From: Burkholderiales bacterium
Lineage (GTDB): Bacteria; Pseudomonadota; Gammaproteobacteria; Burkholderiales; SHXO01
Reading direction: 5' to 3'
DNA length: 28,506 bases
Assembly: GCA_026125625.1 (NCBI GenBank)
Contig: JAHCKU010000001.1
Coordinates: forward strand, 1-28,506
The notes below the pieces were generated by a model. It was not told the origin of the DNA. It made no database searches and saw nothing but the letters and a program-made list of their open reading frames with translations. Positions 7,985-8,120 of this stretch are shown in pieces; the first letter of the stretch is position 1, and every line of letters starts with the position of its first letter. A program made the position numbers and the translations under genes.

Positions 7985-8120
7985 TTTCCCAACCTTGCGA
8001 CTATGCGAGCTCGGGCTCACGCAACCGTTCGGGATTGTCGAAGAGATCCGCTCGAGCGAGGCAGGCTCAGCAACGGGCTTACATACCCTAGAGGCGGGAC
8101 GCTCTACCCGAGCGGCGTTA
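7985..8120 (-). ncRNA. Predicted IS110 bridge RNA (target-binding loop about 8048-8115, donor-binding loop about 7987-8034); transcript ends approximate
   Basis: Guides CCCGCCTCT (8090-8098) and TGAG (8066-8069) match the target. Guides ACGGTTGC (8021-8028) and CAAG (7994-7997) match the donor junction. Enclosing stems CCGCTCGGG/CTCGAGCGG and TCCCGA/TTGGGA. Confidence 0.85.

What the first reader, a model, noticed from the sequence alone, without database searches (positions are those of the whole stretch)
7985..8120. Fully decodable bridge RNA: a natural RNA-guided recombinase with a readable target and donor specificity
Seen on the coding strand: CCGCTCGGG...[CCCGCCTCT]-AGGGTATGTAAGCCCGTTGC-[TGAG]...CTCGAGCGG forms the target loop. 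Its 9-nt left guide equals the target flank plus core (8153-8161), and its 4-nt right guide is the reverse complement of core+CA (7012-7015). TCCCGA-[ACGGTTGC]-GTGAGC-CCGA-GCTCGC-ATAGTCG-[CAAG]-GTTGGGA forms the donor loop. Its 8-nt left guide equals the element's 3' end (7015-7022), and its 4-nt right guide is complementary to CTTG at the 5' end (8151-8154). All four guides occur in the expected order, each loop with an internal hairpin and an enclosing stem. Established: this is the IS621 bridge-RNA architecture (bispecific guide RNA, DEDD plus Ser recombinase, CT core). Inference: an intact, probably active orthologue with target CCCGCCT-CT-CA and donor ACGGTTG-CT-TG, and a candidate programmable recombinase. 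Whether this particular element is already catalogued is unknown.
Basis: partly seen in the sequence, partly recalled or inferred. Interest (0 to 1): 0.85.

Follow-up and report, generated by a model that had tools for sequence, protein, structure and literature searches.

The report
Ordinary IS110 element with bridge RNA
This is an intact-looking jumping gene of the RNA-guided IS110 family.

Summary
Observation confirmed. All four guide strings and all stems sit at the stated coordinates on the minus strand.

- **Element:** 1,139 bp, window 8152..7014, with a CT core on each side. It lies in a REP-like palindrome. About 20 unoccupied copies of that palindrome elsewhere in the genome fix the boundaries to the base.
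- **Recombinase:** the 315-aa protein has both IS110 domains. It aligns end to end with the solved IS621 and ISCro4 recombinases, and D12/E55/D97/D100/S235 are in place.
- **Family evidence:** a covariance model built here finds the same two-loop RNA upstream of about 150 homologues. Its stems covary, and the guide positions track each copy's own flanks (right guide: mean 3.9 contiguous matches beyond the core, against 0.45 for mismatched pairs).
  - The right target guide pairs with only 4 nt, where relatives use 7-8.
  - This sub-clade has lost the family's canonical circle-junction promoter.
  - The element is single-copy.
  - No RNA data were listed, so "active" is unproven.

Bridge RNAs, REP targeting and junction promoters are published (Durrant 2024; Hiraizumi 2024 and 2026; ISPpu10 preprint). 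NCBIfam already names the protein family "RNA-guided transposase". This scan has noted the same kind 1,170 times in at least 837 other genomes. Verdict: new member of a known kind, low interest.

The parts
7014..8152 (-). Whole IS element, 1,139 bp counted with one CT core. The left end begins TGTATGTC at 8152; the right end finishes ACGGTTG-CT at 7022-7014.
   Evidence: Removing it restores the REP-like consensus ..TTCCCCGCCTCT|CAAGAGGCGGGGTGGCG.. seen at unoccupied paralogous sites such as C465 and C57. Conserved family ends.
8155..8161 (-). Left target (LT) CCCGCCT in the flank, followed by the left CT core copy at 8154-8153.
   Evidence: Identical to LTG positions 1-7, and the core to positions 8-9.
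7012..7013 (-). Right target (RT) CA, directly after the right CT core copy (7015-7014).
   Evidence: CTCA is the reverse complement of RTG TGAG. Beyond it the flank (AGAG) does not match the extended RTG, which predicts GCAA.
7973..8152 (-). Non-coding left end, 180 nt, holding the promoter elements and the bridge RNA.
   Evidence: Long left end and 11-nt right end are the IS110-group layout (PMC11208160).
8129..8134 (-). Candidate -10 box TATGCT. On the excised circle it lies 17 nt after TTGCT|T (7018-7014 plus 8152).
   Evidence: Best sigma-70-like site on the reconstructed RE-LE junction, 7 of 12 matches. The same geometry is found in L086, L087, L088 and L002. No promoter is found in the integrated state. 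Inference only.
7985..8119 (-). Bridge RNA core (covariance-model match). It probably runs from about 8123 to about 7976.
   Evidence: Model R1 gives 139.9 bits, E 4e-36. The same model hits just upstream of the recombinase gene in about 150 homologous loci.
8048..8115 (-). Target-binding loop module. Outer stem 8115-8107 with 8056-8048, plus GAG 8104-8102 with CTC 8060-8058. Distal hairpin 8088-8075.
   Evidence: 13-pair helix with 9 pairs changed on both sides in 11 close sequences, 0 of 500 shuffles as high. All 13 pairs covary in the wider alignment A3.
8090..8098 (-). Left target guide (LTG) CCCGCCTCT.
   Evidence: 9 of 9 identical to flank plus core. Homologues' LTGs differ and track their own flanks. 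Own-pair mean 4.8 of 7 against 3.2 permuted.
8066..8069 (-). Right target guide (RTG) TGAG.
   Evidence: Reverse complement of core plus CA. This family position ends in AG almost universally, and its reverse complement matches the right flank for 7-8 nt in most homologues but only 4 nt here.
7978..8045 (-). Donor-binding loop module. Basal stem 8045-8039 with 7984-7978 (overlaps the Shine-Dalgarno GGAGG). Stem 8034-8029 with 7992-7987. Hairpin 8020-8005.
   Evidence: RNAalifold and pair counts. The basal stem keeps complementarity with different sequences in other clades.
8021..8028 (-). Left donor guide (LDG) ACGGTTGC.
   Evidence: Equals the right end 7022-7015. Across the family, LDG variants (ACAGTCGC, ACAGCCGC, AGGGTTGC, ACAATCGC, ACGGTTAC and others) co-occur with the same variant at the right end.
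7994..8005 (-). Right donor guide, in two pieces: (C)ATA 8005-8002 and CAAG 7997-7994, separated by GTCG.
   Evidence: Together complementary to CT-TG-TATG at 8154-8147. Discontiguous RDG pairing is described for IS621 (PMC11208160).
7025..7972 (-). Recombinase gene, 315 aa. ATG at 7972 with GGAGG 6 nt upstream; stop codon TGA at 7027-7025.
   Evidence: PF01548 and PF02371. NF033542 'IS110 family RNA-guided transposase', 222 bits against a cut-off of 140. IS621 (8wt6) E 1e-31 and ISCro4 (9t56) E 2e-35 over the full length, with D12, E55, D97, D100 and S235 aligned to the catalytic residues.
7014..7024 (-). Right end, 11 nt after the stop codon: AAC, then left donor (LD) ACGGTTG, then core CT.
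   Evidence: The closest relatives (L082-L088) share this short right end.

Best explanation
Window 8152..7014 (minus strand) is a complete insertion sequence of the IS110 group, the group of IS621. Its left end encodes a bridge RNA of about 150 nt with two internal loops.

The target loop presents CCCGCCTCT (same sense as the target's top strand, so it pairs with the bottom strand) and TGAG (pairs with the top strand). Together these read the site CCCGCCT-CT-CA. That site lies at the tip of a REP-like palindrome present about 20 times in this genome.

The donor loop presents ACGGTTGC and (C)ATA..CAAG. These read the joined ends of the excised circle, ACGGTTG-CT-TGTATG.

By analogy with IS621, a tetramer of the DEDD/Ser recombinase bound to this RNA would synapse circle and target and exchange strands at the CT core. 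The element ends up flanked by CT on both sides.

Shown here: the sequence anatomy, exact boundaries, recombinase homology with the catalytic residues, and family-wide covariation of stems and of guides with flanks.

Inferred: transcription (probably from a weak promoter completed only on the circle, TTGCT|T-17 nt-TATGCT), recombination chemistry, and present-day activity.
For: - Exact guide and flank identities at the predicted loop positions.
- Precise boundaries from about 20 unoccupied paralogous REP sites: the 11-nt target occurs 20 times against 2 for the reversed control.
- Both Pfam domains, NCBIfam NF033542 and full-length alignment to the IS621 and ISCro4 structures with DEDD plus Ser.
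- Model R1 finds the RNA upstream of the gene in nearly all of 160 homologous loci.
- Stem covariation: 9 pairs compensatory in the close set, and 25 of 27 in A3 with 0 of 500 shuffles as high.
- Guide-flank covariation: the RTG reverse complement matches the right flank for 5 or more nt beyond the core in 39 of 68 non-redundant loci, mean 3.85 against 0.45 permuted. LTG own pairs score 4.8 of 7 against 3.2. LDG variants track right-end variants.
- An E. coli plasmid relative obeys the same rules.
- Architecture as published (PMC11208160).
Against: - No RNA evidence: no RNA run was listed.
- Single copy in a 78%-complete, 598-contig assembly, and no copy above 72% nt identity in 27 congeneric genomes.
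- The RTG pairs with only 4 nt, in the lower tail of the family.
- The canonical junction promoter (TTGACx-17-TATGTT) is lost in this sub-clade. The replacement candidate scores only 7 of 12.
- Single-sequence folding is no better than shuffles.
- Rfam 15 gives no match.
Confidence: 0.9

Rival explanations
1. It is a genuine bridge-RNA element, but this copy is a stranded, no longer mobile relic. It would be intact in sequence yet poorly expressed and poorly matched to its site.
For: - One copy only, with none in congeners.
- RTG is 4 nt where relatives have 7-8.
- No site in the genome matches the extended guide: none with an exact LT matches more than 3 of the 6 RT bases, and the best site overall has one LT mismatch.
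- The ancestral junction promoter is lost, and the -10 T6 and outer STIR base changed from T to C (TGTATGTC).
- Only 1 Watson-Crick pair plus 1 wobble for the handshake dinucleotides after exchange (my reading).
Against: - The ORF is full length with all catalytic residues.
- All 35 consensus pairs are formable.
- Donor guides match the ends perfectly, and the LTG matches 9 of 9.
- The short right end and the TGTATGTC start are shared by seven diverged relatives (L082-L088, 67-76% aa), each at a different site that matches its own guides. The derived architecture has therefore transposed.
- Wild-type IS621 also works with a 4-nt RTG (PMC11208160).
- One low-depth contig from the likely source sample may represent an IS-free allele.
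Confidence: 0.35
2. The guide-like matches are not guides. The left end would have picked up a fragment of the REP repeat, or the matches would be chance in GC-rich DNA, and the leader would be only a 5' UTR of the transposase mRNA.
For: - The target is a repeated, C-rich palindrome.
- Single-sequence folding energy is unremarkable.
- No RNA data.
Against: - The identity to the REP is exactly 9 nt, bounded by mismatches on both sides, at the loop position where homologues carry other 7-9-mers that match their own, unrelated flanks.
- Three further guides match in the correct order and strand sense.
- Permutation controls separate own pairs from foreign pairs.
- Stems covary.
Confidence: 0.03

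Closest known systems
IS621 of E. coli (bridge recombinase plus bridge RNA; Durrant et al. 2024 PMC11208160; structures 8WT6-8WT9)
   Same: - DEDD plus Ser recombinase, alignable over the full length (E 1e-31).
- Bridge RNA in a long left end, with a very short right end.
- Two internal loops in the order LTG-hairpin-RTG then LDG-hairpin-RDG.
- CT core, 9-nt LTG, 4-nt RTG, and a discontiguous RDG ending CAAG followed by GU.
- Left end starting TGTAT.
- Targets REP-type repeats.
   Different: - Distant protein relative: alignable over the full length at E 1e-31, percent identity not computed here.
- No room for IS621's 5' stem-loop: only about 37 nt lie between the element's first base and the target-loop stem.
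- The -35 box is not in the right end. The candidate -35 straddles the junction.
- The right end is only 11 nt.
- The LDG pairs with 8 nt here, not 9.
ISCro4 transposase (PDB 9t56)
   Same: Best solved-structure match (E 2e-35, residues 7-312), with the same domain order and catalytic residues.
   Different: Only sequence similarity was tested. Its RNA and target were not compared here.
ISPpu10 of Pseudomonas putida (bioRxiv 10.64898/2026.03.19.712850)
   Same: IS110-group element whose bridge RNA lacks the 5' stem-loop. It inserts almost only into REP palindromes, beside a target hairpin. Expression is proposed to depend on a promoter rebuilt at the circle junction.
   Different: - Different host and guides.
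- Relatedness of the proteins was not measured here.
- Whether the REP hairpin is required for this element ('dual-match') is untested.
- Here the insertion is at the tip of the palindrome.
Metagenomic and MAG relatives (L082-L088 at 67-76% aa; P0003 at 83%; Burkholderiales MAG L002 at 63%)
   Same: Same sub-clade: short right end, left end starting TGTATGTC, the same RNA model at 133-151 bits, and the same donor ACGGTTG-CT.
   Different: Different target guides and insertion sites. Most have longer RTG matches (5-8 nt). None is the same element by the usual identity criteria.

Membership tests
IS110 family, IS110 group (IS621-like bridge recombinase systems) | N-terminal RuvC-like DEDD domain with the four acidic catalytic residues | tested here: met
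   PF01548, E 3e-26. D12, E55, D97 and D100 align with the IS621 catalytic positions in the phmmer alignment.
IS110 family, IS110 group (IS621-like bridge recombinase systems) | C-terminal Tnp domain with the catalytic serine | tested here: met
   PF02371, E 8e-16. S235 in NRDSG aligns with the IS621 YESG serine. NF033542 scores above its cut-off.
IS110 family, IS110 group (IS621-like bridge recombinase systems) | Long non-coding left end and short right end, with no long terminal inverted repeats | tested here: met
   Left end 180 nt, right end 11 nt. The ends TGTATGTC.. and ..ACGGTTGCT are not inverted repeats.
IS110 family, IS110 group (IS621-like bridge recombinase systems) | CT core dinucleotide at both boundaries, with precise restoration of the target on removal | tested here: met
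   CT at 8154-8153 and at 7015-7014. The reconstructed site equals unoccupied REP paralogues.
IS110 family, IS110 group (IS621-like bridge recombinase systems) | Bridge RNA fold: two stem-enclosed internal loops, each with a distal hairpin, supported by covariation | tested here: met
   Model R1 hits in about 150 loci. Single-sequence thermodynamics are uninformative.
IS110 family, IS110 group (IS621-like bridge recombinase systems) | Target loop guides match the flanks (LTG same sense as the left flank plus core; RTG complementary to the core plus right flank) | tested here: met
   LTG 9 of 9 and RTG 4 nt in the window. Family-wide own pairs against permuted pairs.
IS110 family, IS110 group (IS621-like bridge recombinase systems) | Donor loop guides match the element's own joined ends | tested here: met
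   LDG 8 of 8, RDG 4 plus 3-4 nt. LDG and right-end variants co-occur.
IS110 family, IS110 group (IS621-like bridge recombinase systems) | Short (2-3 bp) sub-terminal inverted repeat flanking the donor sequence | tested here: inconclusive
   The family consensus is AAC before the LD and GTT after the RD. The window has AAC and GTC, so 2 of 3.
IS110 family, IS110 group (IS621-like bridge recombinase systems) | Sigma-70 promoter rebuilt at the RE-LE circle junction | tested here: inconclusive
   Most relatives have TTGACx-17-TATGTT across the junction, 9-11 of 12. The window's sub-clade has only TTGCT|T-17-TATGCT, 7 of 12.
IS110 family, IS110 group (IS621-like bridge recombinase systems) | The RNA is made and is required for guide-dependent recombination | not testable with these tools
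   No RNA run was listed.
IS1111 group of the IS110 family | Bridge/seek RNA in a long right end, a short left end, and 7-17-bp sub-terminal inverted repeats | tested here: not met
   The right end is 11 nt, and the RNA model lies in the left end.

The most novel reading that the evidence does not exclude
This sub-clade has lost the family's junction promoter. Two linked features might then regulate it. First, the -35 box of the replacement promoter (TTGCT|T) would be made of the recombination site itself, so it would exist only on the excised circle. Second, the basal stem of the donor loop (8045-8039 with 7984-7978) base-pairs with the transposase Shine-Dalgarno sequence, so folding of the bridge RNA would throttle translation of its own recombinase from the same transcript.
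Probability: 0.2. Interest if true: 0.4.

Novelty: new member of a known kind. Interest (0 to 1): 0.22.

Why it matters
It adds one more natural bridge-RNA and recombinase pair with a cleanly readable 11-nt target and a 15-16-nt donor. It is small (1,139 bp, 315-aa enzyme), lacks the repressive 5' stem-loop of IS621, and comes from an activated-sludge bacterium. Such orthologues are raw material for genome-editing screens. The pair of a REP tip and its element is also a tidy natural example of how these elements confine themselves to intergenic repeats. It does not change what is known: mechanism, architecture, REP targeting and junction-dependent expression are all published, and many equivalent elements have been decoded.

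Tried and rejected
- **Rfam 15** scan of 6800-8400 at E up to 1: no hit, so no curated family matched.
- **Single-sequence folding** of 7973-8160 and 7973-8124: z -0.22 and -0.02, and the minimum-energy fold mis-draws the target loop. It was not used as evidence.
- **Promoter scan** of the integrated locus: none found.
- **Other copies:** only this one in the own assembly. In 27 congeneric genomes there were only distant relatives, at most 72% nt.
- **RNA runs:** none listed.
- **Contigs of four DNA runs**: they show presence in two activated-sludge runs of one sample. One 193-nt, depth-2 contig joins 7015 to 8391 with 60 other letters between. It could be an IS-free allele with a shorter REP array, or a graph artefact among repeats. 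It is too weak to count as evidence of mobility.
- **A genomic site matching the extended right guide** (CT-CAGCAA): none with an exact LT. The best site has one LT mismatch and 5 of 6 RT bases.
- **REP capture or chance** as the source of the guide matches: rejected (see rival explanations).
- **IS1111-group membership:** rejected, because the right end is too short.
- **The 383-aa ORF** that stays open through the left end (7025..8176): treated as a GC-rich artefact. Homologues start at the ATG at 7972, which has a Shine-Dalgarno sequence.
- **ISfinder** could not be queried.

Full report
**What is there.** The coding strand is the minus strand. A 315-aa ORF (7972..7025) has an ATG preceded by GGAGG. 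It carries the two IS110 domains PF01548 and PF02371. It passes NCBIfam NF033542, "IS110 family RNA-guided transposase", with 222 bits against a cut-off of 140. It aligns over its whole length with the solved IS621 (8wt6, E 1e-31) and ISCro4 (9t56, E 2e-35) recombinases. D12, E55, D97, D100 and S235 stand at the catalytic positions. Upstream lie 180 non-coding bases. Downstream of the stop codon the element ends after only 11 bases.

**Boundaries.** On the coding strand the left junction reads CCCGCCT-CT|TGTATGTC and the right junction ACGGTTG-CT|CAAGAGG. The own genome holds 20 copies of CCCGCCTCTCA, against 2 for the reversed control. These copies sit inside a REP-like repeat (..TCTTCCCCGCCTCTCA[A/C]GAGGCGGGGTGGCG..). 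Joining the window's two flanks reproduces that repeat without a gap. The element is therefore 8152..7014 (1,139 bp with one core) and sits at the tip of a palindrome. The surrounding intergenic stretch (about 6920-8520) is an array of related palindromes. Neighbouring modules read CCCCTCCTCT-CA, one mismatch from the left guide, and are unoccupied. The flanking genes are a periplasmic binding protein and an IclR-type regulator.

**Checking the observation.**
- LTG 8098-8090 equals 8161-8153.
- RTG 8069-8066 is the reverse complement of 7015-7012.
- LDG 8028-8021 equals 7022-7015.
- RDG 7997-7994 is the reverse complement of 8154-8151.

All enclosing stems and hairpins are present. I add three things. 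A second RDG piece, (C)ATA at 8005-8002, pairs with TATG at 8150-8147; this gives the discontiguous RDG pairing described for IS621. A 3-bp extension lengthens the target-loop stem. A 7-bp basal stem encloses the donor loop (8045-8039 with 7984-7978).

Folding the single sequence gives no signal (z -0.22 and -0.02). The window can nevertheless form all 35 pairs of the family consensus.

**Relatives.** The protein has more than 8,000 database relatives, the nearest other one at 83% identity. I fetched 80 loci from genomes and 80 from metagenomes. Eleven close left ends align well. RNAalifold recovers the two-loop fold with 11 compensatory pairs. On the trimmed alignment, 9 of 13 pairs of the target-loop stem change on both sides, and no shuffle of 500 reaches the observed values. 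A covariance model built from it (R1) finds the RNA directly upstream of the recombinase gene in almost every locus. On that wider alignment, which is fitted to the model, 25 of 27 pairs show compensatory change.

- In the closest clade the LTGs differ (CCCGCCT, GCCACCC, CCCGCCC, TCCACCC, CTGACCC, CTGGCCC and others), and each resembles its own left flank.
- Over 68 non-redundant loci, the reverse complement of the RTG matches the right flank for a mean of 3.85 contiguous bases beyond the core. Mismatched pairs give 0.45. Thirty-nine loci match 5 or 6 bases.
- LTG own pairs score 4.8 of 7, against 3.2 permuted.
- LDG variants co-occur with the same variant at the element's right end.
- A 48%-identical element on an E. 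coli plasmid obeys the same rules.

**Where this copy departs from its family.**
1. Its RTG matches only core plus CA, in the lower tail of the family. The extended guide would read CT-CAGCAA. No site in the genome with an exact LT offers that. Functionally this is a 4-nt right guide, as in wild-type IS621.
2. Most relatives rebuild a good promoter on the circle: TTGACx in the right end, 17 nt, then TATGTT at the start of the left end, scoring 9-11 of 12. The window's sub-clade (L082-L088 and partly L002) has a shortened right end and TGTATGTC. Its best candidate is TTGCT|T-17-TATGCT, at 7 of 12, with the -35 box straddling the junction. The sub-clade's members sit at different sites that match their own guides, so this derived layout has been mobile.
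3. There is no room for the 5' stem-loop of IS621, as reported for ISPpu10.
4. By my reading, the handshake dinucleotides (CC after the RTG, GU after the RDG) gain pairs after strand exchange, going from none to one Watson-Crick pair plus one wobble. That is the insertion-favouring direction described in PMC13626964, but weaker than in IS621.

**Activity.** This is not shown.
- The assembly (78% complete, 598 contigs) has one copy.
- None of 27 congeneric genomes has the element. Five of them are enriched for the target 11-mer.
- No RNA run was listed.
- Contigs of two activated-sludge runs from one sample, probably the source, carry the element. One low-depth contig may represent an IS-free allele, but among repeats this is weak evidence.

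**Comparison with what is known.** The anatomy is that of IS621-type bridge systems (PMC11208160; PMC11208158; PMC13626964). REP-hairpin targeting and junction-dependent expression are described for IS621 and ISPpu10. All testable defining features are met; the short STIR and the junction promoter are inconclusive. Durrant et al. already predicted bridge RNAs in 85.7% of catalogued IS110-group elements and analysed 5,511 target-RNA pairs. This scan has 1,170 earlier notes of the same kind in at least 837 genomes.

Noticed in passing
window 8039-8045 with 7978-7984 (minus strand): A 7-bp stem (CTCTTCG with CGGAGGG) encloses the donor loop, and its 3' arm is the transposase Shine-Dalgarno sequence. 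Other clades keep a stem here with quite different sequences, some covering the start codon (for example L035, L046, L161, L017, L105). It may couple bridge RNA folding to transposase translation.
   Followed up: partly
window 7014-7030 and 8125-8152; loci L082-L088, L002: This sub-clade has lost the family's canonical circle-junction promoter (TTGACx-17-TATGTT). The right end is about 6 nt shorter, and the left end starts TGTATGTC, not TGTATGTT. A weaker candidate, TTGCT|T-17-TATNNT, spans the junction.
   Followed up: partly
window 6900-7013 and 8155-8520: The intergenic region is an array of REP-like modules with a period of about 128-130 nt. It includes perfect 10-bp palindromes (CCCCTCCTCT-NN-AGAGGAGGGG) and a 35-nt exact duplicate (8260-8294 = 8388-8422). 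The neighbouring palindromes differ from the left guide by one base and are unoccupied.
   Followed up: partly
window 7015 to 8391, run X1: A 193-nt, depth-2 contig from the activated-sludge sample joins the right flank at exactly the IS boundary (7015) to 8391, with 60 unmatched letters between. It is either an IS-free allele with a shorter repeat array or an assembly-graph artefact.
   Followed up: no
L003:492-599 and L003:1409-1464: In this MAG copy the target-loop half and the donor-loop half of the bridge RNA lie about 800 nt apart. The intervening sequence looks by eye like the end of another transposase gene, so a second IS seems to have landed inside the bridge RNA.
   Followed up: no
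L004, L005, L008, L009: In these copies the bridge RNA model lies 130-270 nt upstream of the recombinase start rather than abutting it. Extra sequence of unknown nature lies between RNA and gene.
   Followed up: no
window 7025-8176 (minus strand): The recombinase reading frame stays open through the whole left end and 24 nt into the flank (a 383-aa ORF from a GTG). Homologues and the Shine-Dalgarno sequence point to the ATG at 7972, so this looks like a by-product of high GC content.
   Followed up: partly
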